From contig JBMFRC010000002.1 in NCBI GenBank assembly GCA_049968235.1, positions 64,001 through 128,000 on the forward strand: a DNA stretch of 64,000 nucleotides, in the 5' to 3' direction. Under the pieces are notes generated by a model that was not told the DNA's origin, made no database searches, and worked only from the letters and a program-made list of their open reading frames with translations. This document shows positions 3,194 to 43,662 of the stretch, piece by piece; the stretch's first letter is position 1; each line of letters starts with the position of its first letter. This DNA comes from Candidatus Hydrogenedens sp. (GTDB lineage: Bacteria > Hydrogenedentota > Hydrogenedentia > Hydrogenedentales > Hydrogenedentaceae). Both the position numbers and the translations under genes were made by a program.

Positions 3194-3420
3194 CTCGTTT
3201 AGTTTTTTTTATTCAATTTTCACTATATAGTTTATACCACAAACCAGTTTGAGATGTCAAGTCAAATTTTCAAAATTTTAAAAAAATTTTATTCCCAAAA
3301 TATAACTGAAATTATTTTCACTATTCCACTACTTTTCATATATTACAAAAATAGAATACTCAACCATAACATTGAAAATAGTATAATAAAATACTACTAA
3401 ACATAGATTGGGATTCATTG

Positions 3421-4823: not shown

Positions 4824-4824
4824 A

Positions 4825-7482
4825 TCAATTCAAATAACCCAGATTTCTCAAAGTCTCCCTTGTTTCATCAGAGATATCCACTACCTTTCTTCCATCCTCT
4901 GTTCCTTTTGAATAGTACTCAACCCAGAAGAAAAATTCTTTTTTATCATTAGAATTGCCTGACTTCTGAACCTTCATATCTTCACTTGAGAAATAGAAAA
5001 ACTTTTCACCTTTTGACTGTAACAGATGATAACTAGAAGGATAACTTATTGCCCAACAATTTTGGATATGAATTTTCAACTCGCTTTTATCTTCTACCGG
5101 CATAATCTGAATTATTGCAGGTATAGAACTTTTTGGAAGAAATACATCTGCCTTCAAATCCATAGGTGTTGTTCTTTCATTTTTTGTCCGTAATACCCCT
5201 CCTTGAATTTTAGAAAATAGAATAGGCACAGAACATTGTATATTTACGGAACCTGTCCAGAAGGATACAGGATTCGAGAAACATAACCACCAACCTTCTT
5301 TTTTTAGTCCAAATTTTTGCATCAATAATATGGACATATCTTTAAATAATTCCGGTTGTTCTAAACTTACATCATAGTATTCTGCCATATTTTTTTGTAA
5401 ATCAAATAAAGATTTAACACCCTTAGGAATATCCTCCAAAAGTTTATACTGCTTTTTTACTAATGCCCTCATATCTCCTCTTAGACTTGATGAGAAAATA
5501 AGTCTTTCAGTCATTTTTTCTTTTGAAATAATATCTAACAAAGATACACCATCTAATGACACATCCTCTTTCTGATTTAATATTTCTAATATAGTAGGCA
5601 TTAAATCTTCCAGTATTACTCTATCTTTCACATGAAGTCCTGCATATTTGTTATTCGGGAATTTGATAATAGTTACATTCCTCATACTCTCCTCATACAC
5701 ATTATCATGTCCGTATAATCCATGTTCCCCTAAAGATTCCCCATGGTCAGAAACAACCGCTATAAAAGCAGAGTCATACAATCCAATGTCTTTTAAAAAA
5801 GCAAAAAAATCTCCTAAAGCATAATCTACTTTATAAACACAGTCATCATAAAGAGCATGAATATATGCAATCTCTTCCTCTGTTGGGTAAACATCCCCGG
5901 TTGCAAGATACTGAAGCAATAGCCCTAACGATGGGATATCTTCACAACCAATATAACCGTTTTCAGGTCTTACCATTCCTCGAGAAAACATTTTAAAATG
6001 TTCCTCACCCGCATCATAAATCAAATTTCCATACGCTTTTGAATGGACATCATAATTATGCATAAAGACAAATATTCGTTGATTTTGTTGATGGGCTATC
6101 CAATCTTTAGTTTCATTACAAACTTCCAATACAGTCCTCCGATTTCCTTCTCTTCCTTCTTCCGGTACAGAAAACAAATCCATTCCTCGTGCAAATCCAC
6201 GAGATGGAATAAACCACCATAAAAACCCCGCAAAACCTGCTGTTGTATATCCATAATCTCTCATCAGTTCAGGCAAGGTTCCCACATAAGGGTAAACATC
6301 TGTATTACGAGTTAAACCATGTCCTTCCGGAAATCGTCCTGTAAGCATGCTCATATGAGCCACAGGGGTAAATGTCTGGGTAGTATATGCATTTTCAAAA
6401 ACAACAGCATCCTTTGCAAAATTATCCAGATTTGGACTTGTAGGCAAATAATATCCATATGGTAGTAAATGGTCGGGTCTTAATGTATCGCAAGAAATAA
6501 TAAAAAAAGGGGGTCCCTTTTGGTTATTTTCAATTGTTGTATTTACAAGCATTGGATTTCCCCATACGCCGAAATCTCCAATGGAATTATTAATTGGGTT
6601 CATCTCAAAAATAAACTCTACCTCCTTACTTTCATATTTATCAAGACTTAATACACCTCTTTTCCATTTCCTATCTTCCTCTGTTACCTGTGGTCGCATT
6701 TCCGCATGATATATCGCATCTGTACTACCATCTGATACTATATGGATTGAAAAGGCTATTCCATCAGTCTGCCAATCTTGGCTTTCAGAAGTTTTCTTAT
6801 AAGCACCCAAAATAGGATTGTATATTCCAATATAAAAAATTAGTTTCATTCCCTGTTCAATTTTCCGAGTAAATATTACCTTTTCGTTCCATAAAACATC
6901 CATACACACACTACCTATTGTTAACTGTCGTGGATGTTTTTTTTCATAAGGCACAAAGTTTACTTTCTCTAAGTTTACTTCCTTCTCATCTGATATTCCT
7001 TGTATTTCTACCCATACCTTATCTACTGTATCAAATATAGGATTCTCTTTATCCGAAAATCTCAAAGCAAAGGAATATGTATGTATCTTCCCATCGTTAA
7101 TCAATCTCATCCCTTCGGAAGGGAAATAAATGTTATCATCCCATTTTTTACTTGACCAACCCCACCTTATTTCAGAACCCTTCTTACTGGATAAATATAT
7201 ATGAACAAATTGATACATTCCCATATCCATAGCGGATGACAGAGAAAATAACAGAATCTTTACATTTGGGTCCAAAGATTTTTTCCATTCTTTTCCCTCT
7301 AATATTAACTCTGGAAACTTTTCTCTTTTTTCCCAATATTCCTTCGAGAAACGGAATATGTCATCACCCCATGAGACACAACATATTGGTATAACAAACA
7401 TAAAAATAAAAACAATAAGAAGGGGAGTTTTCCTGTGAAAAAAAGAAACTATAGGTTTTTCTTTATATATATACTTATTCAT
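4825..7482 (-). CDS. Membrane-anchored sulfatase-fold (alkaline phosphatase superfamily) protein with novel N-terminal domain, paralog A (885 aa)
   Basis: N-terminal hydrophobic anchor followed by a roughly 300 aa domain with an IRWGWSS motif. Central sulfatase-like core FIISCDTLRPDHLLPYGY ... TFTPVAHMSMLTGRFPEGHG has Thr where FGly sulfatases have Cys and His where they have Arg. Metal/active-site-like blocks HGESLGEHGLYGH follow. The sulfatase-like C-terminus ends ..LRNLGYLN. Confidence 0.75.
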   Translation of the reverse strand: MNKYIYKEKPIVSFFHRKTPLLIVFIFMFVIPICCVSWGDDIFRFSKEYWEKREKFPELILEGKEWKKSLDPNVKILLFSLSSAMDMGMYQFVHIYLSSKKGSEIRWGWSSKKWDDNIYFPSEGMRLINDGKIHTYSFALRFSDKENPIFDTVDKVWVEIQGISDEKEVNLEKVNFVPYEKKHPRQLTIGSVCMDVLWNEKVIFTRKIEQGMKLIFYIGIYNPILGAYKKTSESQDWQTDGIAFSIHIVSDGSTDAIYHAEMRPQVTEEDRKWKRGVLSLDKYESKEVEFIFEMNPINNSIGDFGVWGNPMLVNTTIENNQKGPPFFIISCDTLRPDHLLPYGYYLPTSPNLDNFAKDAVVFENAYTTQTFTPVAHMSMLTGRFPEGHGLTRNTDVYPYVGTLPELMRDYGYTTAGFAGFLWWFIPSRGFARGMDLFSVPEEGREGNRRTVLEVCNETKDWIAHQQNQRIFVFMHNYDVHSKAYGNLIYDAGEEHFKMFSRGMVRPENGYIGCEDIPSLGLLLQYLATGDVYPTEEEIAYIHALYDDCVYKVDYALGDFFAFLKDIGLYDSAFIAVVSDHGESLGEHGLYGHDNVYEESMRNVTIIKFPNNKYAGLHVKDRVILEDLMPTILEILNQKEDVSLDGVSLLDIISKEKMTERLIFSSSLRGDMRALVKKQYKLLEDIPKGVKSLFDLQKNMAEYYDVSLEQPELFKDMSILLMQKFGLKKEGWWLCFSNPVSFWTGSVNIQCSVPILFSKIQGGVLRTKNERTTPMDLKADVFLPKSSIPAIIQIMPVEDKSELKIHIQNCWAISYPSSYHLLQSKGEKFFYFSSEDMKVQKSGNSNDKKEFFFWVEYYSKGTEDGRKVVDISDETRETLRNLGYLN

Positions 7483-7488
7483 ATCTGG

Positions 7489-10083
7489 CTATAAATATCC
7501 TGCATTCTTTATATTAGATATAGCATCTTCGGGTAGTTCAATTTCCTTCCGTTCATTTTCATTCGTTAATGGTTTTTGACGAATGAATATATATGTATTA
7601 CCATCGTTGAGAATATCAGGTATATTTTCCCAATACAAATTTTCTCCAGGTAATATAAATTCATACTCACTTACTAGTTCACTAATTCTATCTCGAGAAA
7701 CTACTTTAAATTTCTCCGGACTTCTAAAACCTATTCTTAATTCCTGTTTCATATCTTTCGGATATACATATAGGGAATAAGTATCTGCAATTTGTGGATA
7801 ACTTATGGTTCCATATAAACAATCCATTTTCTCCGCTTTCTTATACCAGAACATTATATTATCGGGTATCACCGAAATCAGATTGGGTCCGGGACATATA
7901 AATACCTCATCAGGAATATTTGTTTTTTTCCCTTTCATCTCGATAACCCAACCTTCTCCACTAAAAAATCTATAGGAACTCATTTCCGCTAAAAATTGTT
8001 TTACAAGGATATTTTCCTTTTCAAAAAGATTGACACATTCTGCCGGGTCCTGTAATAAATCAAAAAAACTCACCTTTGATTCTCTAAAAGAACAAATAAC
8101 CTTATGTTTATCCGATATGAGGGCTTCTTCATTCTGATATTGATTCTGAACGAAAATTTTCCTTGGAGTATTATATTCTCCTTCTATAATCTTAGACAGG
8201 GATACGCCATCCAGATTTTCATAGCTTATATTTAAATTATCCAGTATCGTAGGGACAATATCTTCTAAACAAACCAGATTTTCTATTCGTCTCCCGGCAT
8301 ATATAGCATTGGGGAACTTTATCATCATAGGAACTCGTGCAGTATGTTCATATACATCTACATGCTCATAACGACCATGTTCCCCTAATGCTTCTCCGTA
8401 GTCAGCAATCACTACAATAACAGATTTATCATACAAACCCTGTTCTTCCAAAAAATTAAACAGGTCACCTAACGCGTAATCTACTTTTGCAACGCAATCA
8501 TCATATAACGCATTGATATATAAATTTTCGTAAAAACCTAATTTCCCTAATGTTGCCTGTATGTGGTTAAAAAAACTTCTTGGATTAGGCATACATTCCG
8601 CTGTTAATAATTCAGGAACTTCGAGTATATCGCTGAAGAAAAAAAATCGAGCGTCTTCAGAACTATATATTGTCGCAGGGGGAAACATTCGGGTATGCAC
8701 ATCATAATTGTGTAAAAACACGAAAAGATTGTTATATTTCATCTTTTTTATTTCGTTCTTTAATATTTCTTGTGTAGAAAAAACATCGCGTAGATATTCT
8801 GGTGGATAAAAGAAACTATCCATCCCTCGCATATACCCTCTGGAAGGCAAAAACCATGTCGTTGCTCCTACCAATCCTATGGAATAGTACCCTAATTCTT
8901 TTAAATATTCTCCCAATAACTTAACATTATCATAAGCAGGAAGTTCTGCATTAACTCCATGGTTCTTCGGGAATAGCCCCGTTAAAAGACTCATATGAGC
9001 CACTGGAGTAAAGGTGCGTGTTGTATATGCTCGTTCAAATAATACTGCCTCCTTTGCAAATCTATCCAGATTTGGACTTGTTGGCAATGAATAACCATAT
9101 GGTAACAAATGGTCTGCTCGCATTGTATCGCAAGAAATAATAAATACGGGCGGATATTGCTTTGTTGTATCATCGTCATTTCGAATAATGATAGGATTAC
9201 CCCATAACCCATATTCTTCAGGAATATTTATCGCTGTTTTTTTGGTAAAAACAATTTGTACTTCTTTCCCTGCAAATTTTGATAGGTCTAATTCTGTAAA
9301 TCGCCATCCCTGGTCATCCTCTTTTTCCATCGGATTCATCTGATGTTCATATATATGTTCTTTTCTCTCATCACACGATACATCAATGGAAAAAGTATAT
9401 TTTTGTTTACTCCATTCTTGAACATACTTCTTCTGAGATAATGCTCCTACCTTTAGGTTATATATACCTGTATACAGTAGTAATCTATCCCCTGTTTGTA
9501 TTTTTGTAGTAAATGTCCAGATATCCTCAGGAATACAATTCATACATAATCCATTAAGCATAAATTGTCCCAATTCTGAAGGCAAATATCTAACTAATTC
9601 AACATTTTTCAATTGCAACCCATTATTAATCTTTTCTAAATTTGCAACTTCAATAATAAATTTATTGGCACTATCAACTATAGGGTTGATTTTATCAGGA
9701 TATTTAATTTCAAAAGTATATTGATGTAATTTGCCATCTGCAATCAGAGGAAGCTTATCTTCAGAAAAAGAATTCGGTCCTTCTTTATTTGCAGAACTCC
9801 ATCCCCATCGGATAAAAGCATTTTTGTCTGAAACCATCTCTATTTTTATTAGTTTGTATAAACTTAAATCTAAATGTATTTCATATTCAAAAAGAATCTT
9901 TCCTACCTCGCTTTGCTTCATCTGCCATTGTTCTCCGGAAATAGTTAAGTCAGTTCTCGGAAACTTATCATTCCAATATTTATCCGTTAGTCGAATGACC
10001 AATCCATAAGATTCCGACCACAAAAATACACTTATAAAGAGAACTTTTATTCCTATCTTGATATTTACATATCTGTTAAACAT
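7489..10083 (-). CDS. Membrane-anchored or secreted sulfatase-fold protein with novel N-terminal domain, paralog B (864 aa)
   Basis: Same architecture and motifs as paralog A: IRWGWSS, VFIISCDTMRADHLLPYGY, TFTPVAHMSLLTGLFPKNHG, YGEALGEHGRYEH, ends ..NAGYL. It lies 6 nt upstream of paralog A on the same strand. Confidence 0.75.
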   Translation of the reverse strand: MFNRYVNIKIGIKVLFISVFLWSESYGLVIRLTDKYWNDKFPRTDLTISGEQWQMKQSEVGKILFEYEIHLDLSLYKLIKIEMVSDKNAFIRWGWSSANKEGPNSFSEDKLPLIADGKLHQYTFEIKYPDKINPIVDSANKFIIEVANLEKINNGLQLKNVELVRYLPSELGQFMLNGLCMNCIPEDIWTFTTKIQTGDRLLLYTGIYNLKVGALSQKKYVQEWSKQKYTFSIDVSCDERKEHIYEHQMNPMEKEDDQGWRFTELDLSKFAGKEVQIVFTKKTAINIPEEYGLWGNPIIIRNDDDTTKQYPPVFIISCDTMRADHLLPYGYSLPTSPNLDRFAKEAVLFERAYTTRTFTPVAHMSLLTGLFPKNHGVNAELPAYDNVKLLGEYLKELGYYSIGLVGATTWFLPSRGYMRGMDSFFYPPEYLRDVFSTQEILKNEIKKMKYNNLFVFLHNYDVHTRMFPPATIYSSEDARFFFFSDILEVPELLTAECMPNPRSFFNHIQATLGKLGFYENLYINALYDDCVAKVDYALGDLFNFLEEQGLYDKSVIVVIADYGEALGEHGRYEHVDVYEHTARVPMMIKFPNAIYAGRRIENLVCLEDIVPTILDNLNISYENLDGVSLSKIIEGEYNTPRKIFVQNQYQNEEALISDKHKVICSFRESKVSFFDLLQDPAECVNLFEKENILVKQFLAEMSSYRFFSGEGWVIEMKGKKTNIPDEVFICPGPNLISVIPDNIMFWYKKAEKMDCLYGTISYPQIADTYSLYVYPKDMKQELRIGFRSPEKFKVVSRDRISELVSEYEFILPGENLYWENIPDILNDGNTYIFIRQKPLTNENERKEIELPEDAISNIKNAGYL

Positions 10084-19139: not shown

Positions 19140-22100
19140 TTAATTTGCCGGACCTACACCAAAGCCATCTTCTCCAACAGAATCGATATGATAACCGCCA
19201 GCATTAAAGAATTGAATTAATCGCAATAATTCAGTAAAGTCTATTTTCCAATTCTTAGGATTATAATCGGATGTGTGATAATTACAACTATGATTTACCC
19301 CATCACCAACATCATATCCATCTTCTGTAGATGTCGATACATCCGCACAGTGATATCCGAATGAATTAAAGAACTGAATTACACGCAATAACTCACGGAG
19401 TTCTATCTTCCAATTCCCGTTTACATCCGCACTATGTCGGGAAGGAGGTTCTCCTTCAGATACACCTTCTACAGTTCCTTCTCCCTCAGGCACACCTTCA
19501 GGACTTCCTTCTTCATTCGAAATCACAGTTGCAACCACAGGATAGACGAGCATATTGGGTCCACCTGTAAACGATACAATAGCAAGGTATTCCCCTGAAG
19601 AAAGGTCATTTGCACAGAATCTCACAACTATGGACTGGCTTTCTCCCGGAGCAAGATTATAATTATAATCAGAGGTAATTTGGAACACATCTGCTGATAA
19701 CTCTGGAGCACTTATTATCGCATTTCCTATCAAAGCAGATGTACTCAATTCAGAATTCATTATAGCAAATGTCCCTTCCACGCACTCACCCGCATTTACC
19801 TCACCTAGATCCAATACATAAGGATTAATAACTGGAACAACAATACTTTGTTCCCCCTCAGTTACTCCTTCGGGTTCGATAGGAAGAAACATTGCTTTTA
19901 GAACTGTATTTTGACTAATACTGAATGTTACAGGATTAGCTGTCCCAGCAAACTGCCCATTAATCGTCCAGCCCTGCCAGATATCTTTCGACGAATTATA
20001 AGTAGCCTGTGCGGTTACTGTGGTTCCAAAATAATAATACCCGGGCTGTAAACCTTCACTACTTTCAGGTGATACCTGAACTGAAACAGGAGCGGTATTC
20101 CCCTCTGTTACCACAGATAATTGATACATCGGTAAAATCTCACCTTCATTTGTCTCACTAAAGCATGGAGCACCACAGCCACCTCCATTACTCTTTGCCG
20201 TTGGGTCAACTGCAGAAACTACAAAGGTGATAATACTTTCTCCACTTTCATTGAAGGTAGCATTATATTCCGCTAAATTACAAACCCTATCTCCATCCGC
20301 ATCACCAAACGCACCTAAATACTGACTTGCAGAAGTATCCACCTGGTTTACTATGAAAGATATCCCTACCTGTCCTGCTATTTGAGAAAGCATTGATAAT
20401 GAAATACCTTCTCCCAATGTGGCTATTCCTGTAAATAATGCCTTCAACTGATTTACATCCACTTTTGATAAAATATTTTGAGGGATTACTCCCTGTGATA
20501 CCGCAGTATCAATTATATTCGTAAACAAGGCATAATTGCTTTGCCATGCAGACAATACACAACAACGGTTCTGAACACCCGGGTTCGCCAATATAATATC
20601 CAGAAGTTGCAATTGAGCAGACTCCACCATTTGATTACCATCGAAATCTGTTGTAATCGAATTAATACTCATCATTGAACAATATGCTTCCCACGCATTC
20701 CGGGCATTCCCTTGAACTCCAATATTACCACATGAGGTAATAGCACACGGTACTGGACAACCTTCAGGAATTTCTCCTTCACCCTCTACAATACCTTCAG
20801 TAGATCCTTCAGCGGAACCTTCTCCTTCAAAATTACCTTCGGGGAGCCCTTCAACAGTTCCCTCAGGTTCAATACACGGAGCATAACGGGACAGGTCACT
20901 TTCCTTATATTCAGAAGGAACTCCCTTTCCTGCTGAAATACCTGCTAATCCATCATACGCTTCTATATTTAACCACGTTATCGCAATCCGACCATCAAAG
21001 AACATCTCTATCTGGAAACTGGCTGTATCATTTGTAAAGTTACCATCAACCTTAACCTCATGATAGGTCACAACGAAACGGTCATCCAACTGCTTCCACC
21101 AGATTTGTCCGCCATCATTCGGTTTCAGATTATCAAACAGACCTGAAACACGCGGTATACGGAAATGATTTTCCGGTGATTCCTTATTCTCGGTATCCCC
21201 TTCTGTAAACGTTAAATAACCATTACTACCTATAAATACACGGTCATAAGCCACTCCATAAAGAATAACCTGTTTCCCGTCTGCCAGAGGTACCTCGACA
21301 TAGGCATCATCACCTAAACTGACCGGTGTTGAAAGTATCGAATCTACCGGGTAATCTGTAATCCCCGTAATAGTGCATGCAAAATAACCGTTAGCATTAT
21401 TCGCCGGAGTTAAAAGTAACCGTTTATTATCCAAGTCATTGTCAACAACAAAGTCTTCTGTAAACCAATCCGTTGCAGGTTGAGAGGGTGGACCGGAGGT
21501 AAAATTCACCTCACAAGGACGGAATTCTAAATCTAAGGGTCCGTTAAACGGGGACCAGGGTATCGTCATAATGGGTAAATCCCACCGACCTCCAAAAATA
21601 CTAATAAATACATTCGGATAAAACTTAACCGTTAAAATAAGGTTACAAATTTCATTATAGTTCATCACAGAGCGATAGCCATCTTCACCTACTTGTACGG
21701 GTACGGATTGTCCCTCCTCCCAGAATAATAAACCTTCCTGTAAACTTATAGTATCACATTCCAGGGAACCATTTGCATCCGCTGAAACATCAATACCTGC
21801 CCCTGATGAAAAAGGAATCCACTTTAACCAGTCCGGTAAAGTAACACCTACTAAGTTCAATATTACTTTTACAAGGTCCACATCAAACAAATGCGTTTTA
21901 GGTGTATTATCTTGAATCGTAGAGGCAGTATCTAACAAAAAACTATTAAAATAATCATATGCAGTTGTACGAAATTCCACATCAGGAATGTAAGGAACAT
22001 CTACTGTAAACGGAGGAATAATTCCTATATCAAACCCCGCTTTCATGAGCAATTCCGCTCCGAAATCATACCCCCAGAAGCCACTGGCATTACCTGCTGT

Positions 22101-22943
22101 TAACCATGGCGGATTTAAATGGAAAAAGCCCTGCACATCCGCCTGGTAATTAGCAACTGCTGCAGCGCGAATACGCACCTGAACTGGAAATCCTCCCGGA
22201 TTTTCCTCAAATCCACCCTCTCCTTTACCATTAGGCCACCAGCCTGAATCAAAACTTAGGTTTAACCCTTTCATTGGTGCGGTAAACTGGACAGGTTGCG
22301 TTTCTACTGCTTTACCTAAGTCTCCCTTTACATCAACCTTAACTATCTCTTCAACACCACCTGTAACAGTATATTCTGTATTAATTGATTTCATACCCGA
22401 ACAGGGTTCTAACACTTGTACAATAACTCCAGACTTCCCATCCTGTTGATAATCCCAGCGAATTAAAACGGGACGAACCCCATTTTCCGAATAAATCTCT
22501 TTCCTCTGCTCTACATATAAAAGTTTATCTTTCAAAAAACATTTCGTCTCACTTACACCTTCATTCCCTTTCGTTTGAACAATAGACCATTCTAAAGAAA
22601 TGTTTTCTAATTGCAATCGAAAATTCTTGCTACCATCGTTTGACATTATCTTTTCCGTCTTATCAAAATATTTCTCTAATAATGCACGATTCATTGAAGT
22701 AAAGCCAGGAAAGCCAACTCCTTGTTTACCGAATTGCATTATACTTCGACGAACAACGCCATCTTCGCTGAATTCCACATATTCCAGAGAACCCTCTTCT
22801 CTTGCTAACAACTGAAGTTTTGCATCAGGAGGAATATTATCTCCTTCCCAGCGTGCTGAATATACCCAGTATGATTCTGTAAAACCAACAGCAGAAATAC
22901 ATACAATAAGAATTAATGCAAACATTAACTTCTTGTATTCCAT
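19140..22943 (-). CDS. Giant secreted multidomain protein (1267 aa) with (P)EG-rich linkers and C-terminal dockerin/EF-hand-like tandem repeats
   Basis: Signal peptide MEYKKLMFALILIVCISAVGFT. Low-complexity linkers EPEGTVEGLPEGNFEGEGSAEGSTEGIVEGEGEIPEG and EEGSPEGVPEGEGTVEGVSEGEPP. Two C-terminal repeats: DVNGNWKIELRELLRVIQFFNSFGYHC and DYNPKNWKIDFTELLRLIQFFNAGGYHI. An internal GDADGDRVCNLAEY Ca-loop-like motif. Confidence 0.7.
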   Translation of the reverse strand: MEYKKLMFALILIVCISAVGFTESYWVYSARWEGDNIPPDAKLQLLAREEGSLEYVEFSEDGVVRRSIMQFGKQGVGFPGFTSMNRALLEKYFDKTEKIMSNDGSKNFRLQLENISLEWSIVQTKGNEGVSETKCFLKDKLLYVEQRKEIYSENGVRPVLIRWDYQQDGKSGVIVQVLEPCSGMKSINTEYTVTGGVEEIVKVDVKGDLGKAVETQPVQFTAPMKGLNLSFDSGWWPNGKGEGGFEENPGGFPVQVRIRAAAVANYQADVQGFFHLNPPWLTAGNASGFWGYDFGAELLMKAGFDIGIIPPFTVDVPYIPDVEFRTTAYDYFNSFLLDTASTIQDNTPKTHLFDVDLVKVILNLVGVTLPDWLKWIPFSSGAGIDVSADANGSLECDTISLQEGLLFWEEGQSVPVQVGEDGYRSVMNYNEICNLILTVKFYPNVFISIFGGRWDLPIMTIPWSPFNGPLDLEFRPCEVNFTSGPPSQPATDWFTEDFVVDNDLDNKRLLLTPANNANGYFACTITGITDYPVDSILSTPVSLGDDAYVEVPLADGKQVILYGVAYDRVFIGSNGYLTFTEGDTENKESPENHFRIPRVSGLFDNLKPNDGGQIWWKQLDDRFVVTYHEVKVDGNFTNDTASFQIEMFFDGRIAITWLNIEAYDGLAGISAGKGVPSEYKESDLSRYAPCIEPEGTVEGLPEGNFEGEGSAEGSTEGIVEGEGEIPEGCPVPCAITSCGNIGVQGNARNAWEAYCSMMSINSITTDFDGNQMVESAQLQLLDIILANPGVQNRCCVLSAWQSNYALFTNIIDTAVSQGVIPQNILSKVDVNQLKALFTGIATLGEGISLSMLSQIAGQVGISFIVNQVDTSASQYLGAFGDADGDRVCNLAEYNATFNESGESIITFVVSAVDPTAKSNGGGCGAPCFSETNEGEILPMYQLSVVTEGNTAPVSVQVSPESSEGLQPGYYYFGTTVTAQATYNSSKDIWQGWTINGQFAGTANPVTFSISQNTVLKAMFLPIEPEGVTEGEQSIVVPVINPYVLDLGEVNAGECVEGTFAIMNSELSTSALIGNAIISAPELSADVFQITSDYNYNLAPGESQSIVVRFCANDLSSGEYLAIVSFTGGPNMLVYPVVATVISNEEGSPEGVPEGEGTVEGVSEGEPPSRHSADVNGNWKIELRELLRVIQFFNSFGYHCADVSTSTEDGYDVGDGVNHSCNYHTSDYNPKNWKIDFTELLRLIQFFNAGGYHIDSVGEDGFGVGPAN

Positions 22944-23165
22944 TGCAACTCTCCTTTATATTTTTTATTGATTTGTATTAAATTTCTTAATCCCTCAAAC
23001 ATAATTCTAAAACCACAAAACCATAAATACCATAAAAATTGACCTTTTATATAATCTTACCATTATTTTATACAAATTTCAATTTTTTTATGACAAATTT
23101 TTATTTTGATAAAAGAATAAAATAAGGTGTATGATAAATTAAACAGAAAAAGAAGGAGTACTGCA

Positions 23166-23498
23166 ATGATTAAAGATAGAATTGTTCGTATAAAGATGAA
23201 AAAGAATTTCAAGGAACAAAAGCCCTTTTCTTTCGTTGGGAAAATAACCCTCTGGTCTGAAAATTGGATAGCCTTAGAAGGAAAAGGAATTATGTTAACC
23301 CGTCAGCAGTCCAGTGGGGTACAAATAGATGAAGGAATTAAAGTTCTTTTAATCCCTCGTGAAAGCATTGACCATATACAGGTATTGCCAGATAATTTTG
23401 ATATAACCCAATTAAAAGTTACCACTGAAGGACAACAATTAGTTTTAGTAATTGATGGGAAACGCGATTCTATCCTTGGAGAAATGGGAGAAGGATAA
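23166..23498 (+). CDS. Hypothetical small protein (about 110 aa)
   Basis: ORF with a good RBS aaggag 7 nt upstream of ATG 23166 (MIKDRIVRIK...). The six-frame track extends it to a GTG at 23127. No family recognised. Convergent with efp. Confidence 0.4.
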   Translation: MIKDRIVRIKMKKNFKEQKPFSFVGKITLWSENWIALEGKGIMLTRQQSSGVQIDEGIKVLLIPRESIDHIQVLPDNFDITQLKVTTEGQQLVLVIDGKRDSILGEMGEG

Positions 23499-23518: not shown

Positions 23519-24085
23519 TTAACCAGTAGACACACGCTCGATATACTTACCTGTTCGAGTATCTATTTTTATAACATCACCTTCTTTAATAAAGAGGGGA
23601 ACCTGTATTTTTGCACCACTTTCCAGAGTACAGAATTTTAATACATTTGTAGCGGTATCTCCACGCACAGCAGGTTCCGCAGAAACAACTTTTAATTCAA
23701 CAAACGGTGCCATTTCCGCAATAATAGGTTTATCTTCCAGAAAGTAAATAGAGCATAAATCGGACTCTTTCAAAAATTTCTTCTGCTCACCTAACATTTC
23801 TTCAGGAATAAAGGTCTGTTCATAAGTTTCTAAGTCCATAAAATAAAGGAGACCTTCCGACTCATAAAGATATTGCATCTTCCGCTCCAGCAACATTACT
23901 TCCTCCACTTCATCGGACATGCGAAAAGTTACATCCATTGTCCTTCCTGTTTTTACATTCTTTAATTTCGTTTTTAACATGGCTCGCCAATTACCGGGAG
24001 TAATATGTTGGAACTCCACAACTACCCAGATATCTCCTTCATAACGAATTGCCATTCCTCTGCGAAAACCAGAAACAGAAATCAT
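23519..24085 (-). CDS. efp: Elongation factor P family protein with atypical beta3-beta4 loop (188 aa)
   Basis: Length and overall sequence are EF-P-like (three-domain, ..GDTATNVLKFCTLESGAKIQVPLFIKEGDVIKIDTRTGKYIERV). The conserved KPGKGQA loop reads TPGNWRAM. Confidence 0.8.
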   Translation of the reverse strand: MISVSGFRRGMAIRYEGDIWVVVEFQHITPGNWRAMLKTKLKNVKTGRTMDVTFRMSDEVEEVMLLERKMQYLYESEGLLYFMDLETYEQTFIPEEMLGEQKKFLKESDLCSIYFLEDKPIIAEMAPFVELKVVSAEPAVRGDTATNVLKFCTLESGAKIQVPLFIKEGDVIKIDTRTGKYIERVSTG

Positions 24086-24209
24086 CCTTTCATTCCTTTC
24101 TTTGGGTTTCAGTTGAATCTTTTTTGCCTCTATTCATACTATATTATAAATTATTATAAATAGTTTATAATCCCTTTGTAAAAAAAACTTTTTAATATAA
24201 GGTAGACTT

Positions 24210-27047
24210 ATGAATTTTATAGTCTTCATTCCGTTGCTACTTCATCTCCTTCATTTCCCACAAATAAACAATCCTTTTGAAAATGCACATTTAATCATAG
24301 ACCCACGTATGAAAGATGTTATCCCTAATAACAATTTCATGACGAACACAAAAAATGACTGGATAAAAGACAGTCCCCACCAGATACATACACTATTCAG
24401 AAAAATTTTTGTTGTTGAAAAATTTCCTAAATTGGCAGAGATATATATTACTGCAGATGACTATTTTAAACTCTATATAAATGGTGAACATATTTTAGAA
24501 GGTCCAACAAACGGTTATCCTTTTGCCTACCCTTATTTTAAGTTTAACCTGACCCCATTCATTAGGACAGGGACAAATATACTGGCTATTCACACATATT
24601 ACAGAGGGTTAATAAATCGTGTTTGTGTCAGTGGTGATAATCGTTCCGGGCTTATCTTGAAACTTATACTTACCGATATGGAGGGACGAAAAACAGAGAT
24701 TGTATCTGATACAACATGGAAATGCTTCCCTCTGGATGCATTTATTACGACTGACACTATAGGTTATAAAACACAATTCATTGAGAATATAGATATGCTA
24801 AAATACCCAAAAGACTGGCAATCCCTTGATTTCGATGATAGCCACTGGATAAACCCCGAATTAGGAAAAAGTGACTACACTTTTGTTGACTTACCTGCAA
24901 AACCATTAGAAATAAAAAATGTTTTCCCCAAAGAAAAGAAAAAAATTAATTCAGGACATTTCATTTTTGATTTCGGTCGCGAAGTCGTTGGATACACGAG
25001 AATAAAAACTAGGGGTGAAAGAGGACAAAAAATGATAGTTTATCATGGGGAAGAACTGGATGAAAACGGATATGTCCGCTGGCAAATGCGAGCATACTGT
25101 GATTACAAAGAAGAAATCATTTTATCCGGTGAAGAAGATATTTCTCCTTTCTATGAATACCGTGCCTTTCGATATATTGAATTGGATAATGCTCCCGAAG
25201 AAACCTCCGTATGGGTTGAAGAACGCCATTACCCATTTGACACCACAAAAGTTCTCTTTTATTCTTCAGATAAGGATTTAACAAATATATGGGATATTTG
25301 TCAATTGGGAGTTCGACTTTGCTCGCAAGAAGGCTTTTTGGATTGTCCTTCCCGTGAAAAAGGACAATATTTAGGAGATGCAGTTATTACATCTCGTTCC
25401 TTTATGTGGCTTACAGGAGATACTTCATTAACAAAAAAATCATTAATAGATTTTTCTCTTTCAACAAAAATAGATCCTGGTCTAACAGCGGTTGCACCTT
25501 CCGGGTTTATTCAAGAACTTGCCGAATACTCCCTTCAATATCCATTAATGCTATGGGAATACTATCGTCATTCCGGTGACAAAGATTTTCTAAAAGCAAT
25601 GGCAACAGAATGTTTACCATCACTCCTATACTATTTTGCACAGTTTGAAAATGAATCCGGCTTATTAAACTCTACCGGGAAAAAACCTATTTTGATTGAT
25701 TGGCCCAAAAACCTTCGTGATAATTTCGATTATGATTATGCCCAGAACAAACCTAATGCGGTCGTTAATGCTTTTTATTACGGAGCCGTTACAACAACAC
25801 TGGAAATACAAAAGACGCTCGGCATAGAAGACACTGCACTCAAAGAAAAAGCAGAAAAAATATGGAATGGCTATCAAAAAATCTTTCTGGACTCTGAAAA
25901 GAAACTTTATAAAGATGCTCCAAACTCGAAACATTATGCTCTGCATAGCAATGCTCTACCTCTCTACTTTGGATTGGTAAAAGATGAAAAAGTAAAAGAA
26001 AATATTTTCTCTTTAATTGAACAAAAAGGACTTTACTGTGGTGTTTATATCGCATCTTACATCATTGAAGCATGCTTCAAAGAAGGAAATCCCGAATTAG
26101 GATGGAAACTATTAACAAACAACACAGAATATTCATGGAAGGAAATGCTTCGCAATGGGGCTACTTCCTGCCTTGAAGTGTGGAAACCCGAAATGAAATC
26201 AAATATGAGTTGGTGTCATGCATGGAGTAGTTGCCCTATTTATCTCTTATCGGAATATGTATTAGGTCTAAAAATCGGCAAACCCGGCTGGGAAGAAATC
26301 CACTTCTCCCCAGCAAAAATAAACGATTTACCCGATATGTTTCTCATTAAACCCTTACCTGATGGAGGTTATTGCTCTGTGAATATAAAAAACAATAACT
26401 ATAACCTGACCGTTCCTGAGAATATTCATGTAATAACAGATGGTGTGCAGTGTGGAAATATTTCTGTTCATACTGTTTTATCTCACCAAAGTCCGACAGA
26501 ACTATCCGAAGAAGAAAAGACACTACTGAAAAATTATCAGTGGGACATAAAGACAGAAAACACTCGAGGAATTTGGGTTTCTATCAAAAAACAAAAATTA
26601 TATGTAATTGAAAAAAACAAAGTAGTATGGCAAACTCTTTGTTCCACTGGGATAAAAGGAATAGGTGAAAAATTAGGTTCCGAACAAACCCCCAGAGGGT
26701 GGCATCAAATTGTTGAAAAAATTGGTGACAATGCCCCATGGGGACAAATCTTTCGCAATCGTCAACCCGTAGGGATATGGGATAAAAGTCAGATTACAGA
26801 TGAATCCCTTGTCCTAACTCGAATACTGCGTCTTGATGGCTTGGAAGAAACAAAGAATAAAGGTATTAATAACGAAGGAGAAATTGTAGATTCGTATCAA
26901 CGATTCATTTACATTCATGGCACCAATAAAGAAGAACTTATAGGCACTCCTTTTACACGTGGTTGTATCGGTCTAACTAATAATGATGTGATTATGCTCT
27001 ACAACATTGTTCCCCTCAACACGAAAGTTCTTATTACAGAAGAATAA
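24210..27047 (+). CDS. GH78 alpha-L-rhamnosidase-like glycoside hydrolase fused to a C-terminal L,D-transpeptidase (YkuD) domain (945 aa)
   Basis: N-terminal Bac_rhamnosid_N-like YITADDYFKLYINGEHILEGP. Six-hairpin catalytic-region motif LDCPSREKGQYLGDA. C-terminal YkuD-like block ..IYIHGTNKEELIGTPFTRGCIGLTNND (His ... Cys catalytic pair). Confidence 0.7.
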   Translation: MNFIVFIPLLLHLLHFPQINNPFENAHLIIDPRMKDVIPNNNFMTNTKNDWIKDSPHQIHTLFRKIFVVEKFPKLAEIYITADDYFKLYINGEHILEGPTNGYPFAYPYFKFNLTPFIRTGTNILAIHTYYRGLINRVCVSGDNRSGLILKLILTDMEGRKTEIVSDTTWKCFPLDAFITTDTIGYKTQFIENIDMLKYPKDWQSLDFDDSHWINPELGKSDYTFVDLPAKPLEIKNVFPKEKKKINSGHFIFDFGREVVGYTRIKTRGERGQKMIVYHGEELDENGYVRWQMRAYCDYKEEIILSGEEDISPFYEYRAFRYIELDNAPEETSVWVEERHYPFDTTKVLFYSSDKDLTNIWDICQLGVRLCSQEGFLDCPSREKGQYLGDAVITSRSFMWLTGDTSLTKKSLIDFSLSTKIDPGLTAVAPSGFIQELAEYSLQYPLMLWEYYRHSGDKDFLKAMATECLPSLLYYFAQFENESGLLNSTGKKPILIDWPKNLRDNFDYDYAQNKPNAVVNAFYYGAVTTTLEIQKTLGIEDTALKEKAEKIWNGYQKIFLDSEKKLYKDAPNSKHYALHSNALPLYFGLVKDEKVKENIFSLIEQKGLYCGVYIASYIIEACFKEGNPELGWKLLTNNTEYSWKEMLRNGATSCLEVWKPEMKSNMSWCHAWSSCPIYLLSEYVLGLKIGKPGWEEIHFSPAKINDLPDMFLIKPLPDGGYCSVNIKNNNYNLTVPENIHVITDGVQCGNISVHTVLSHQSPTELSEEEKTLLKNYQWDIKTENTRGIWVSIKKQKLYVIEKNKVVWQTLCSTGIKGIGEKLGSEQTPRGWHQIVEKIGDNAPWGQIFRNRQPVGIWDKSQITDESLVLTRILRLDGLEETKNKGINNEGEIVDSYQRFIYIHGTNKEELIGTPFTRGCIGLTNNDVIMLYNIVPLNTKVLITEE

Positions 27048-40980: not shown

Positions 40981-43662
40981 CTATTTTCCTACAGATTTTT
41001 CTCCCAATTTTGAGCGATATGATTGGATATATTCTGCAATTTCTGGATAATTTAATGTTTCCGCAAGTTCTTGAGGTGTTCTGCCTCGTGTATCTCGGGC
41101 ATCTATATCAGCACCTGCTTTCAGTAGAATATCCACAATGTTAATTTGTCGCTCTTGAACTGCCAGATGAAGTGGAGTAAAACCATCAATCCCCAATCCT
41201 CTTACATTTAAGTCAACTTTGCAATTAACCAGAACTGATGTCATTTCCGGAGAGTGTTTTATTATAGTCCTGTGAATTGGTGCTTTGCCGAAATAAAAAA
41301 TTTCAGCGAAATTAGGATAATATTCAACAATTTTTTTAAGTCCTTCTATATCATTTCTTTCAATTCTCTGTAAATATTCTTCACAAATAACCGCATAGAA
41401 CAAACGAACTACCCCTTGTAATCCTTCAAACAGACGTATTTGAGACATTGTTGCTCCTGCTACAAGAACTGTTTTTTCAAGTCGTTCTTCCGCTTCATCC
41501 AGGGGTGTTTTGCCTGAATTATTACGGACACATATTTCTGCTCGTTTCGTAAGGATAAGTTGCACAAAACGCTCCTGTCCATTCATACACGCATGATGAA
41601 GGGGGGTATTCCCGGAAGTATCCGGTAGATTGGGGTCAACACCTTTTAATATTAAAATTTGGGCAGGACCCCAATGTCCTCTCGCGGAACAGAGATGAAT
41701 AGCGGACTGCCCTGTTTGTGAAGGCTTTTTATAATCAACACCCAAATCAATCAATTCTTTAACTATTATGATATGTCCTCTAATACAAGCTAGATGAATA
41801 GGTGCATAACCATCTTTATTCAGTTCATCCATAGGCAATTTTTTACCCGCAAGCCATATTACTGTATCCACAGCACCACTCTGACATGCATAATGTAAAG
41901 CAGAATTTCTTTTTGCATCAAGCGCAAATAAATCCAGTCCAAATCCCTCTAACCAGCGAATCATTTCTGAGTTTTCCGAACATGCCCCCACATGAATCAG
42001 TGTTCGTTGTTCACGGTCAATTACATCTGTTCTGGCTCCATGCTCAACAAGATATTTTGCAATAGTAAGACTATCCACTTCTACAGCAACAAATAAAGGC
42101 GTTTTCCCCACTGCATTTGCATAATTAACATCGGCTCCCTGTTGCACAAGAAATTCAACCGCATCCTGTTCTTTTGCCTCTACAGATAAATGCAATGGAG
42201 TGTTTCCAGAACGCTCTGTTTCATTAATATCCAGTCCTTTTTCAATAAATAACTGCATCAAAGGAATCAATCCCAATGAAGATGCAAGATGTAAAATCGT
42301 TTTACCACTTTTATCCCGTGCATGGATATTGGCTCCCTTATCTACCAACCATCTCGCCATTTCTTCATTCTTCTTTTCAACTGCAATAAACAACGGCGTA
42401 TATCGAGAACGGTCTGTTATCTCAAGGTCAGCACCCTGTCGTATCAAATCTTCCGCTATCTCTCTTTCGCCCATTTCCACTGCTAAAAAAAGAGGGGATT
42501 TCCCATCTTTATTTCGCAAATTAAGATTGGCACCTCTCTCAACAAGAATTTGAACAATTTCCTTCTTTTTCTGTTCAACTGCAAAATGGAGTGGTGTTTC
42601 AGAATTCCGAACAACATTTACACAGTTCACATCCGCTCCCAAATCCAGCAAAAACTTAACAATATCCGCATCGGATTTTTCTATAGCATATTCAATAGGA
42701 TAGGTATCCTTTCTTACACTTCCCAACCCATTAATATTTACTCCCAAATCGACCAGGAACCGTATCATATCTTTATTTTTGTGTAATATGGCAACACTTA
42801 AAGGTCTATCTCCTTCAATCGTTGATACATCCAGACTTGCTCCTCTTTGAAGTAGATATAAAAGAACCTCTTTTTGGTTAGAGGCTATTGCATCAATTAC
42901 AGGGGGCGTCGAATAACGAGTAGGTGCAGAAACAAGCCATTCCGGATGTTCTTTTAAATATGCGTCTATAGTCTCAATATCCCCAAAACCAATAGCATGG
43001 GACAATGAATAATGAGCATCATAACCTCTCAACACATGAACCACTTCAAAATTTTTCTTCTTTCCTGCCAATAAAGAGGGGCTACTATAAACACTTCCAT
43101 CCGGGACTAAGGGTAATATAGGATTTGCTCCTTTGATTATTAACATGCGTGCGACATCGCCAGTTCCGGACTCTGCGCAAATATGAAGTGGCGAGTAATT
43201 TTCCTTGTTCCGGGAATTCGGATTTAATCCAAGATTTATCAGATGTTCTATTACATATACACTTTGTGCCGATGATGCCAGATGAAGTGAATTATTTCCT
43301 TTTTCATCTGTGCAAAACACATCTCCACCCCATGAAATCCAAATATCGGACATATAGGGAAAGCCTAACCCGGCAGACATTAAATAATATTTATTCTTCT
43401 CCTCCGTTGAAATGGAATCCTTTTCGGAGGAACAATATAACAGGGCATAAATATCTCCTGCTTTTATCAATTCTTCCAGCGAAGAATATCCCCATTTTTG
43501 AAGATTTTCCAAAATAGAACCTGTTTGTTTTTCATCTGCATATACAAAATTTTGAATTACAGATTGAATATACATATGAGTTTTAAAAGATAACATTACA
43601 AAAAATATAATCATTAAAAATATAACAATATAAAGTGACCTCATAACTTTCTTTCTTAGCAT
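40981..43662 (-). CDS. Membrane-anchored ankyrin-repeat protein (893 aa, more than 20 ANK repeats)
   Basis: N-terminal TM LYIVIFLMIIFFVMLSF. Reiterated 33-aa ANK consensus (..G.TPLH.A...G....V..LL..GA.VN..). The orphan ORF set 42200..43517 on the plus strand lies inside this gene. Confidence 0.8.
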   Translation of the reverse strand: MLRKKVMRSLYIVIFLMIIFFVMLSFKTHMYIQSVIQNFVYADEKQTGSILENLQKWGYSSLEELIKAGDIYALLYCSSEKDSISTEEKNKYYLMSAGLGFPYMSDIWISWGGDVFCTDEKGNNSLHLASSAQSVYVIEHLINLGLNPNSRNKENYSPLHICAESGTGDVARMLIIKGANPILPLVPDGSVYSSPSLLAGKKKNFEVVHVLRGYDAHYSLSHAIGFGDIETIDAYLKEHPEWLVSAPTRYSTPPVIDAIASNQKEVLLYLLQRGASLDVSTIEGDRPLSVAILHKNKDMIRFLVDLGVNINGLGSVRKDTYPIEYAIEKSDADIVKFLLDLGADVNCVNVVRNSETPLHFAVEQKKKEIVQILVERGANLNLRNKDGKSPLFLAVEMGEREIAEDLIRQGADLEITDRSRYTPLFIAVEKKNEEMARWLVDKGANIHARDKSGKTILHLASSLGLIPLMQLFIEKGLDINETERSGNTPLHLSVEAKEQDAVEFLVQQGADVNYANAVGKTPLFVAVEVDSLTIAKYLVEHGARTDVIDREQRTLIHVGACSENSEMIRWLEGFGLDLFALDAKRNSALHYACQSGAVDTVIWLAGKKLPMDELNKDGYAPIHLACIRGHIIIVKELIDLGVDYKKPSQTGQSAIHLCSARGHWGPAQILILKGVDPNLPDTSGNTPLHHACMNGQERFVQLILTKRAEICVRNNSGKTPLDEAEERLEKTVLVAGATMSQIRLFEGLQGVVRLFYAVICEEYLQRIERNDIEGLKKIVEYYPNFAEIFYFGKAPIHRTIIKHSPEMTSVLVNCKVDLNVRGLGIDGFTPLHLAVQERQINIVDILLKAGADIDARDTRGRTPQELAETLNYPEIAEYIQSYRSKLGEKSVGK

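What the first reader, a model, noticed from the sequence alone, without database searches (positions are those of the whole stretch)
23519..24085. EF-P homologue lacking the modifiable Lys34 loop (TPGNWRA instead of KPGKGQA)
EF-P activity on polyproline stalls normally depends on a post-translationally modified Lys or Arg at the tip of the beta3-beta4 loop (beta-lysyl-Lys, rhamnosyl-Arg, 5-aminopentanol-Lys). Here the canonical KPGKG reads TPGNWRAM. The tip is therefore Asn/Trp/Arg in an unusual context, resembling neither the EpmA-, EarP- nor YmfI-type signatures. It is closest in spirit to unmodified EfpL/YeiP-like paralogs. This implies either a novel or absent modification system.
Basis: partly seen in the sequence, partly recalled or inferred. 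Interest (0 to 1): 0.5.

Follow-up and report, generated by a model that had tools for sequence, protein, structure and literature searches.

The report
Asparagine-tipped elongation factor P (PGNWRA loop)
This gene is a genuine elongation factor P in which an invariant Asn-Trp-Arg replaces the usual modifiable lysine at the loop tip; such Asn-tipped EF-Ps occur in many phyla and are already catalogued, but nobody has shown how they work.

Summary
Window 23519-24085 (- strand) encodes a 188-aa, three-domain EF-P. Its seven-residue beta3/beta4 loop reads T29-P30-G31-N32-W33-R34-A35. Asn32 aligns without gaps to E. coli Lys34 and S. aureus Lys32.

It is not a decayed gene and not an EfpL/YeiP paralog. 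It passes NCBI's efp equivalog model and fails both EfpL models. PGNWRA was invariant in all 120 best database homologues (57-97% identity) and in 63 of the 80 best GTDB genome loci. These span Hydrogenedentota, KSB1, Calditrichota, Kryptoniota, Ignavibacteria, Bacteroidota MAGs and Chloroflexota. Synonymous codons at the motif are scrambled.

In many relatives the gene sits in the classic efp-accB-accC slot. Published tables list Asn-tipped EF-Ps (PGN[W/L/K]R[A/G]) as the only EF-P in complete genomes of Chloroflexus, Chlorobium, Acidobacterium and Kuenenia, without EpmA, EarP or YmfI. They co-occur with a deoxyhypusine-synthase-like gene.

So this is a new member (Candidatus Hydrogenedens MAG) of a catalogued but uncharacterised class. 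The most likely role is the housekeeping EF-P, with Trp33 and Arg34 supplying the contacts normally made by the modified Lys. A novel modification is not excluded. I could not test whether this MAG has a second efp or a DHS-like gene.

The parts
23519..24085 (-). efp coding sequence, 188 aa, Asn-type EF-P (NCBI MGC8737412.1, Candidatus Hydrogenedens sp. MAG)
   Evidence: ORF. Pfam three-domain match. TIGR00038 230 bits against a cutoff of 185.8. PDB EF-P sequence hits to E=6e-48. Foldseek top hits are all EF-P. Identity of the record.
23906..24076 (-). Domain I (KOW-like EFP_N), residues 4-60
   Evidence: PF08207, E=8e-21.
23981..24001 (-). beta3/beta4 loop T29-P30-G31-N32-W33-R34-A35, the position of the modified Lys/Arg in characterised EF-Ps
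   Evidence: Sequence read. Ungapped alignments. AF2 DSSP loop 29-35. P, G, N, W, R and A invariant.
23990..23992 (-). AAT codon of Asn32, the tip residue equivalent to E. coli Lys34 and B. subtilis/S. aureus Lys32
23723..23884 (-). Domain II (OB fold, EFP), residues 68-121
   Evidence: PF01132, E=2e-20.
23534..23701 (-). Domain III (Elong-fact-P_C), residues 129-184
   Evidence: PF09285, E=5e-26.
24094..24099 (-). Putative Shine-Dalgarno AAAGGA, 8 nt upstream of the ATG
   Evidence: Read directly from the sequence. Inference only.

Best explanation
This is most likely the housekeeping elongation factor P of a Candidatus Hydrogenedens bacterium. It belongs to the asparagine-tip EF-P subfamily, whose loop consensus is PGN[W/L/K]R[A/G] and here reads TPGNWRA.

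Shown: it has the complete three-domain tRNA-shaped EF-P fold, a loop of canonical length (7 residues), and the Pro(-2) and Gly(-1) scaffold of lysine-type loops. In my comparison of N-type against Lys/Arg-type sequences, only loop positions 32-34 passed the class-discrimination filter, and position 29 is never Lys in the N-type.

[quoted passage not shown] In place of a long modified Lys/Arg side chain, the co-varying triad does the job. Asn32 makes the tight turn. Trp33 (Leu in Chlorobi and Acidobacteria) packs or stacks against C74/C75 or 23S rRNA. The invariant Arg34 contacts the sugar-phosphate backbone. On this reading the factor works without any of the three known modification pathways, in analogy to the unmodified PGKGP subfamily and to EfpL Arg33.
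For: EF-P membership:
- Efp equivalog passed and EfpL models failed.
- Three Pfam domains, PDB sequence hits and structural hits.

Selection on the loop:
- PGNWRA invariant in 120/120 homologues down to 57% identity.
- Present in 63 of the 80 best GTDB loci, at 45-89% identity and across several phyla.
- All synonymous codons are in use, which indicates strong purifying selection on the loop.
- Only residues 32-34 passed my filter for positions that discriminate N-type from K/R-type. Position 29 is N/S/T in 64/64 N-type sequences but K in 18/19 others.

Orthology rather than paralogy:
- efp-accB-accC(-gcvH-gcvP) synteny is shared by 21 N-type and 5 K-type loci.
- With the loop masked, N-type proteins still mostly cluster together.

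Published tables:
- N-type loops are the only EF-P ('1 protein') and lack EpmA, EarP and YmfI in complete genomes of Chloroflexus, Chlorobium, Acidobacterium, Alloacidobacterium, Kuenenia and Chloroherpeton.

Need for EF-P in this organism:
- Window proteins keep Pro-Pro motifs at near-random frequency (39 observed, 44.8 expected).
- FtsH keeps its GPPGSGK Walker A motif.

Precedent: unmodified EF-Ps exist, namely the PGKGP subfamily and EfpL, whose Arg33 is modelled to stack between the C bases.
Against: - No experiment exists on any Asn-type EF-P.
- E. coli EF-P K34N alone is inactive, and G35N and Q36S are strongly impaired (Volkwein 2019). Activity of the triad is therefore an inference from co-variation.
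- All 7 Asn-type genomes I inspected in Volkwein's table carry a deoxyhypusine-synthase-like gene, against 128 of 1137 genomes overall. This could point to an unknown modification instead.
- The Trp is not universal in the class (Leu or Lys occurs in some lineages), which weakens a stacking role.
- The loop pLDDT is only about 76.
- Only 64 kb of this genome was searched, so a second efp or a modifier elsewhere is not excluded.
Confidence: 0.55

Rival explanations
1. The Asn-type loop is activated by a so-far undescribed post-translational modification on Asn32, Arg34 or Trp33. A possible modifier is the deoxyhypusine-synthase-like protein that co-occurs with Asn-type EF-Ps.
For: Most characterised EF-P and IF5A types need a modification. 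In Volkwein's table, 7 of the 7 Asn-type genomes I inspected are DHS-like positive, against 128/1137 overall. The authors themselves raised this link. E. coli K34N is inactive.
Against: Deoxyhypusine synthase chemistry needs a Lys epsilon-amine. N-type loops have no Lys at positions 29-35. The 7 genomes represent only 3 phyla, so the co-occurrence may be phylogenetic. No DS-domain gene was found in the 64-kb window. tblastn with a recalled human DHPS found none within 10 kb of efp in 80 related loci. No conserved candidate modifier lies beside efp.
Confidence: 0.25
2. It is an auxiliary EfpL-like paralog, and a canonical Lys- or Arg-type efp elsewhere in the genome does the main job.
For: The rest of the MAG could not be searched. 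Some genomes do carry two EF-Ps, for example Chloracidobacterium with an N-type plus an A-type and one MAG with two N-type copies (L017 and L022).
Against: It fails both EfpL/YeiP models and passes the efp equivalog. The loop has 7 residues with no Arg tip. N-type proteins are listed as the single EF-P in all seven N-type complete genomes I saw in Sieber's table. Relatives occupy the canonical efp-accB-accC slot. All 120 nearest homologues are N-type.
Confidence: 0.08
3. The factor has lost polyproline-rescue activity. It either serves another ribosome-associated role or is functionally decaying.
For: Loss of the catalytic Lys. Single K34N, G35N and Q36S substitutions cripple E. coli EF-P.
Against: The loop is absolutely conserved across phyla with saturated synonymous sites, which excludes decay. 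The ORF is full length and scores well above the equivalog cutoff. Pro-Pro motifs are not depleted in the window proteome and conserved PP motifs are retained.
Confidence: 0.1

Closest known systems
Asparagine-type EF-P as tabulated by Volkwein et al. 2019 (PMC6544042) and Sieber et al. 2024 (PMC11611912 Suppl. Data 1), e.g. Chloroflexus aurantiacus APGNWRA, Roseiflexus APGNWRA, Ca. Kuenenia TPGNWRG, Chlorobium and Acidobacterium TPGNLRA
   Same: Seven-residue loop with Pro at -2, Gly at -1, Asn at the tip and Arg at +2. No EpmA, EarP or YmfI. The same PGNWRA string as in Chloroflexus and Roseiflexus.
   Different: A different phylum (Hydrogenedentota), with Thr at position 29 and Met at position 36. 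DHS-like co-occurrence and single-copy status are not verified for this genome.
Lysine-type EF-P (EpmA/EpmB beta-lysylated E. coli type; YmfI 5-aminopentanol type of Bacillus and Staphylococcus)
   Same: Overall sequence (35% identity to E. coli, about 45% to C. thermocellum and S. aureus, ungapped), loop length, the Pro-Gly scaffold and synteny with accB/accC in relatives.
   Different: Tip Lys replaced by Asn, Gly(+1) by Trp, Gln/Ala(+2) by Arg, and Lys(-3) by Thr. No modification genes found nearby.
Unmodified PGKGP subfamily (Actinobacteria; Pinheiro 2020, Tomasiunaite 2024)
   Same: A possible functional analogy: the loop sequence itself, not a modification, confers activity.
   Different: That family keeps the tip Lys and has a second Pro at +2 (PGKGP). 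Here there is no Lys and no second Pro.
EfpL / YeiP
   Same: Three-domain EF-P fold. An unmodified loop in which an Arg is modelled to contact or stack on the CCA end.
   Different: EfpL has an extended loop (SPTARGAAT, more than 7 residues) with Arg at the tip, and co-occurs with an EpmA-type EF-P. The query fails the EfpL and YeiP HMM cutoffs.

Membership tests
EF-P (TIGR00038 / PRK00529) | Three domains: KOW-like EFP_N, OB EFP and Elong-fact-P_C | tested here: met
   (all three above Pfam cutoffs). AF2 model and Foldseek top hits are all EF-P.
EF-P (TIGR00038 / PRK00529) | Score above the curated equivalog cutoff | tested here: met
   TIGR00038 230 bits vs 185.8. NF001810 231 bits vs 161.
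EF-P (TIGR00038 / PRK00529) | Seven-residue beta3/beta4 loop with a basic Lys or Arg at its tip | tested here: not met
   Loop length is 7 but the tip is Asn32. Volkwein 2019 reports Lys or Arg tips in 95.9% of EF-Ps and Asn in 2.23%.
EF-P (TIGR00038 / PRK00529) | Primary or only efp of the genome | not testable with these tools
   Only the 64-kb window is available and it has no second efp. Class relatives in complete genomes are listed as '1 protein'.
Asn-type EF-P class (Volkwein 2019 / Sieber 2024 tables) | Asn at the tip together with Pro at -2; core PGNxR | tested here: met
   T-P-G-N-W-R-A. Identical PGNWRA core in Chloroflexus and Roseiflexus in the published alignments.
Asn-type EF-P class (Volkwein 2019 / Sieber 2024 tables) | Absence of EpmA, EpmC, EarP and YmfI | tested here: inconclusive
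   None among all window ORFs of at least 120 aa. The rest of the genome was not seen.
Asn-type EF-P class (Volkwein 2019 / Sieber 2024 tables) | Co-occurrence with a deoxyhypusine-synthase-like (Pfam DS) gene | not testable with these tools
   No DS domain in the window. No tblastn hit with a recalled human DHPS in the window or in 80 loci. A whole-genome scan is needed.
EfpL / YeiP | Score above the NF003392 / TIGR02178 cutoffs | tested here: not met
   101 vs 216 bits and 85 vs 264 bits.
EfpL / YeiP | Loop extended beyond 7 residues with Arg at the tip | tested here: not met
   Ungapped against canonical EF-Ps. DSSP loop 29-35. Tip is Asn.
EpmA/EpmB (beta-lysyl) type | KPGKGQA-like loop with tip Lys; epmA/epmB present | tested here: not met
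   No Lys in the loop. No tRNA-synt_2 or lysine aminomutase ORF in the window.
EarP (rhamnosyl-Arg) type | Arg at the tip, no Pro at -2, earP present | tested here: not met
   Tip is Asn and Pro30 is present. No EarP domain in the window. The neighbouring GH78 rhamnosidase is a hydrolase, not EarP.
PGKGP unmodified subfamily | Pro-Gly-Lys-Gly-Pro palindrome | tested here: not met
   The loop is PGNWR.

The most novel reading that the evidence does not exclude
Asn-type EF-Ps, this one included, are activated by a chemically new modification of the N-W-R loop, made by an unrecognised enzyme such as the co-occurring bacterial deoxyhypusine-synthase-like protein. That would be a fourth bacterial EF-P activation pathway. 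Alternatively, they use a Trp/Arg-based way of holding the CCA end that needs no modification and has no structural precedent.
Probability: 0.25. Interest if true: 0.75.

Novelty: new member of a known kind. Interest (0 to 1): 0.36.

Why it matters
EF-P and IF5A are universal, and each characterised version relies on a Lys or Arg at the loop tip, usually with an elaborate modification. The Asn-tip class is widespread: 2.2% of EF-Ps in one survey, and here seen in Hydrogenedentota, KSB1, Calditrichota, Kryptoniota, Ignavibacteria, Bacteroidota MAGs and Chloroflexota.

It appears to be the only EF-P in its hosts, yet it has never been studied biochemically, and the E. coli K34N mutant is dead.

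This analysis shows that N-W-R is an invariant, co-varying triad under strong purifying selection. That gives a concrete and cheap hypothesis to test: a K34N/G35W/Q36R triple mutant, MS of native protein, and a DHS-like knockout. The result would define either a new unmodified mechanism or a new modification.

The window itself adds only another member, so the gene is not a discovery in its own right.

Tried and rejected
- The look-up of encoding contigs with the exact protein returned nothing. The organism was identified instead through the listing of cluster members.
- A literature search for the string 'PGNWRA' gave 0 papers. Two recent reviews and the 2026 BMC Biology paper do not mention asparagine tips. 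Supplements of Brewer & Wagner 2024 are not held. Hummels & Kearns 2020 is not held.
- The search for known modifiers in the window found no EpmA, EpmB, EpmC, EarP, short-chain dehydrogenase or DS domain.
- A conserved-neighbour search for a candidate modifier found only housekeeping genes (accB, accC, gcvH, gcvP, guaA, ybeY, galE, an M24 peptidase, a THUMP-like methyltransferase), identified by eye.
- A link between the adjacent GH78 rhamnosidase and EarP-type rhamnosylation was considered and rejected. It is a glycoside hydrolase fused to a YkuD domain, and it is conserved next to efp only in the closest relative.
- The pseudogene or sequencing-error reading is rejected by conservation.
- The EfpL reading is rejected by HMM cutoffs and loop length.
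- The tRNA scan of the window found nothing.
- I could not find a way to test the rest of the MAG for a second efp or a DHS-like gene.

Full report
**Observation**

The ORF at 23519..24085 on the minus strand is real. It is 188 aa and starts with ATG. The loop codons at 23981-24001 read ACT CCC GGT AAT TGG CGA GCC, which is T-P-G-N-W-R-A.

Pfam finds the three EF-P domains: EFP_N at 4-60, EFP at 68-121 and Elong-fact-P_C at 129-184. NCBIfam places the protein above the curated cutoffs of the efp equivalog TIGR00038 (230 vs 185.8 bits) and of PRK00529. It falls far below the cutoffs of EfpL NF003392 (101 vs 216) and YeiP TIGR02178 (85 vs 264).

HMMER alignments to solved EF-Ps are ungapped through the N-terminal domain. 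They put HITPGNWRAM opposite HVKPGKG(A/S)AF of C. thermocellum and S. aureus. A BLASTP alignment to E. coli EF-P has no gaps over 179 columns. The equivalences are T29/K31, N32/K34, W33/G35 and R34/Q36.

An AlphaFold2 model built with a 41-sequence family alignment has mean pLDDT 84.4. Strands run 18-28 and 36-43 and the loop is 29-35, so Asn32 is the centre of a canonical seven-residue loop. All top Foldseek hits in the PDB are EF-Ps.

**Conservation: a family trait, not an accident**

All 120 best homologues among 5.8 billion proteins carry PGNWRA followed by Met or Phe. Their identity to the query runs from 57% to 97%. In a 41-sequence alignment, H27, P30, G31, N32, W33, R34 and A35 are invariant.

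Of the 80 best loci, 63 carry PGNWRA, at identities from 45% to 89%. They fall into three loop variants:
- TPGNWRAM in Hydrogenedentota, KSB1/Zhuqueibacter and Calditrichota.
- NPGNWRAF in Kryptoniota, Ignavibacteria, MAGs labelled Bacteroidota and MAGs labelled Chlorobiaceae.
- SPGNWRAF in Ktedonobacteria, including cultured Ktedonobacter robiniae and Dictyobacter species, and in Caldilineae.

Across the 64 N-type genes, all four Pro codons, all four Gly codons, six Arg codons and both Asn codons are used. The amino acids are therefore held by purifying selection rather than by recent common descent.

Comparing the 64 N-type sequences with 19 Lys/Arg-type sequences, only positions 32-34 passed my discrimination filter. 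Position 29 is never Lys in the N-type but is Lys in 18 of 19 others.

A neighbour-joining tree with the loop columns masked still groups most N-type proteins together. There are exceptions. L040 has an N-type loop on a backbone closer to Lys-type proteins (60% vs 52%). L023 has a TQSRGRA loop on an N-type backbone (63% vs 54%). This tree is crude and has no bootstrap support.

**Organism and context**

The exact protein is NCBI MGC8737412.1, 'MAG: elongation factor P [Candidatus Hydrogenedens sp.]', on a 279-kb contig. The window has 36% GC.

All window ORFs of at least 120 aa were scanned against Pfam. There is no second EF-P. There is also no class II lysyl-tRNA-synthetase-like EpmA, no aminomutase, no EarP, no short-chain dehydrogenase and no DS (deoxyhypusine synthase) domain.

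The immediate neighbours are a GH78 rhamnosidase-YkuD fusion, a 123-aa ORF without a Pfam match, and a 1267-aa protein without a Pfam match. Only the first is shared with the closest relative, L001.

In 21 N-type loci and 5 Lys-type loci the gene is followed by accB and accC. In the Bacteroidota-like group gcvH, gcvP and guaA follow as well (gene identities assigned by eye from the sequences). N-type efp thus occupies the classic efp slot in many lineages, which argues for orthology with canonical efp rather than a paralog. No conserved candidate modifier sits beside it.

**What is already known**

Volkwein et al. 2019 (PMC6544042) analysed 1166 EF-Ps. Tip residues were Lys 81.1%, Arg 14.75%, Asn 2.23%, Met 0.77%, Gln 0.6% and Ala 0.51%. 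Asn always co-occurred with Pro at -2. E. coli K34N was inactive, and G35N and Q36S retained 3.8% and 21% of activity.

Their alignment contains 4 PGNW and 22 PGNL loops. Examples are Chloroflexus aurantiacus QHVAPGNWRAF, Roseiflexus YHHAPGNWRAM and Chlorobaculum tepidum HRTPGNLRAF.

I inspected seven N-type genomes in their table: C. tepidum, Pelodictyon, C. phaeobacteroides, C. aurantiacus, Roseiflexus, A. capsulatum and Chloracidobacterium. All seven are negative for EpmA, EpmC, EarP and YmfI and positive for a DHS-like protein. DHS-like proteins occur in only 128 of their 1137 genomes. The authors noted this link but left it untested.

Sieber et al. 2024 list N-type loops as the single EF-P ('1 protein', 7 residues, no EpmA/EarP/YmfI) in the following complete genomes:
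- Acidobacterium capsulatum and Alloacidobacterium dinghuense (TPGNLRA)
- Chlorobium phaeobacteroides (TPGNLRA)
- Chloroflexus aggregans and C. aurantiacus (APGNWRA)
- Ca. Kuenenia stuttgartiensis (TPGNWRG)
- Chloroherpeton thalassium (TPGNKRG)

Their Discussion also mentions Asn tips. The common core of the class is therefore PGNxR.

The string PGNWRA appears in no paper text. Recent reviews do not discuss the class. I found no functional study.

**Mechanism**

Shown: the fold, the loop length, the retained Pro-Gly scaffold (both residues are essential in E. coli), the invariance of N-W-R, and the absence of known modifiers nearby.

Inferred: the protein is the working EF-P. The concerted change of K-G-Q/A to N-W-R, together with loss of Lys at -3, builds a loop that stabilises the CCA end by itself. 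Asn favours the tight turn. Arg34, which is invariant across the whole PGNxR class, would contact the sugar-phosphate backbone. Trp33 (or Leu) would pack or stack against C74/C75 or rRNA. This is analogous to EfpL Arg33 in the published docking model and to the rigidified PGKGP loop.

Pro-Pro motifs in the window proteome are not depleted (39 observed, 44.8 expected). FtsH keeps GPPGSGK. This fits an organism that still resolves such stalls, although the evidence is weak.

The main rival is an unknown modification, for which the DHS-like co-occurrence is the only lead. Against it, DHS chemistry needs a Lys amine and the N-type loop has none.

The EfpL-like paralog reading and the loss-of-function reading are both unlikely.

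**Limits**

- I could not search the rest of this MAG. Single-copy status and presence of a DHS-like gene are unverified for this organism.
- The tree is neighbour-joining without support values.
- Neighbour gene names in related loci were assigned by eye.

**Verdict**

It is a new member of a known but mechanistically uncharacterised kind.

Noticed in passing
window 24210-27047 (+): A 945-aa fusion of a GH78 alpha-L-rhamnosidase (Bac_rhamnosid_N, Bac_rhamnosid, 6-hairpin domains) with a C-terminal YkuD L,D-transpeptidase domain. It is transcribed divergently from efp. A homologue also sits next to efp in the closest relative, L001. No link to EF-P rhamnosylation is indicated.
   Followed up: partly
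window 19140-22943 (-): A 1267-aa ORF with no Pfam match, a hydrophobic N-terminus, several Glu/Gly-rich 'EGxxEG' linker stretches, and two similar C-terminal repeats (…NWKI(E/D)…ELLR(V/L)IQFFN…).
   Followed up: no
window 23127-23498 (+): A 123-aa ORF convergent with efp, its stop codon 20 nt from the efp stop. It has no Pfam match and no homologue next to efp in any of the 80 related loci.
   Followed up: partly
window 40981-43662 (-): An 893-aa protein made almost entirely of ankyrin repeats (12 Ank_2 stretches, 434 bits). This is unusually large for a bacterial ankyrin protein.
   Followed up: no
window 3418-10083: A cluster of three sulfatase genes. Two are about 870 aa, with roughly 310-aa N-terminal extensions and SGSH_C domains. 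GH30, a weak GH123-like match and GH78 genes lie elsewhere in the window, which suggests a lifestyle degrading sulfated glycans.
   Followed up: no
L023 7607-8161 (candidate division KSB1 bacterium 4484_87): An EF-P whose backbone is N-type (62.6% to L003, against 53.8% to the best non-N-type) but whose loop reads TQSRGRA: Arg at the tip and no Pro at -2. This looks like a switch of loop type inside the N-type clade. No EarP-like gene was obvious by eye among the ORFs within about 5 kb.
   Followed up: partly
L040 10001-10564 (MAG labelled delta proteobacterium, MFD03899.bin.1.233): An NPGNWRAF loop on a backbone closer to Lys-type EF-Ps (60.3% to L056, against 52.3% to the best N-type). It has the M24 aminopeptidase-efp synteny seen here mostly next to Lys/Arg-type efp loci. 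The N-type loop may have arisen or been transferred more than once.
   Followed up: partly
L017 10001-10564 and L022 1732-2295 (same MAG, CAWFAD01): Two different PGNWRA efp copies (58% and 54% identical to the query) on two contigs of one MAG. This is either a real duplication or bin contamination.
   Followed up: no
L024, L041, L061, L062, L063, L068 (MAGs labelled Spirochaetota or Leptospirales): EF-Ps with a KPARG loop: Arg at the tip together with Pro at -2. Volkwein 2019 found this combination in only 2.3% of Arg-type EF-Ps.
   Followed up: no
window 45123-46811 (+): A 562-aa protein with only a weak nitroreductase-family match (36.6 bits) covering about 120 residues. The rest is unannotated.
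   Followed up: no
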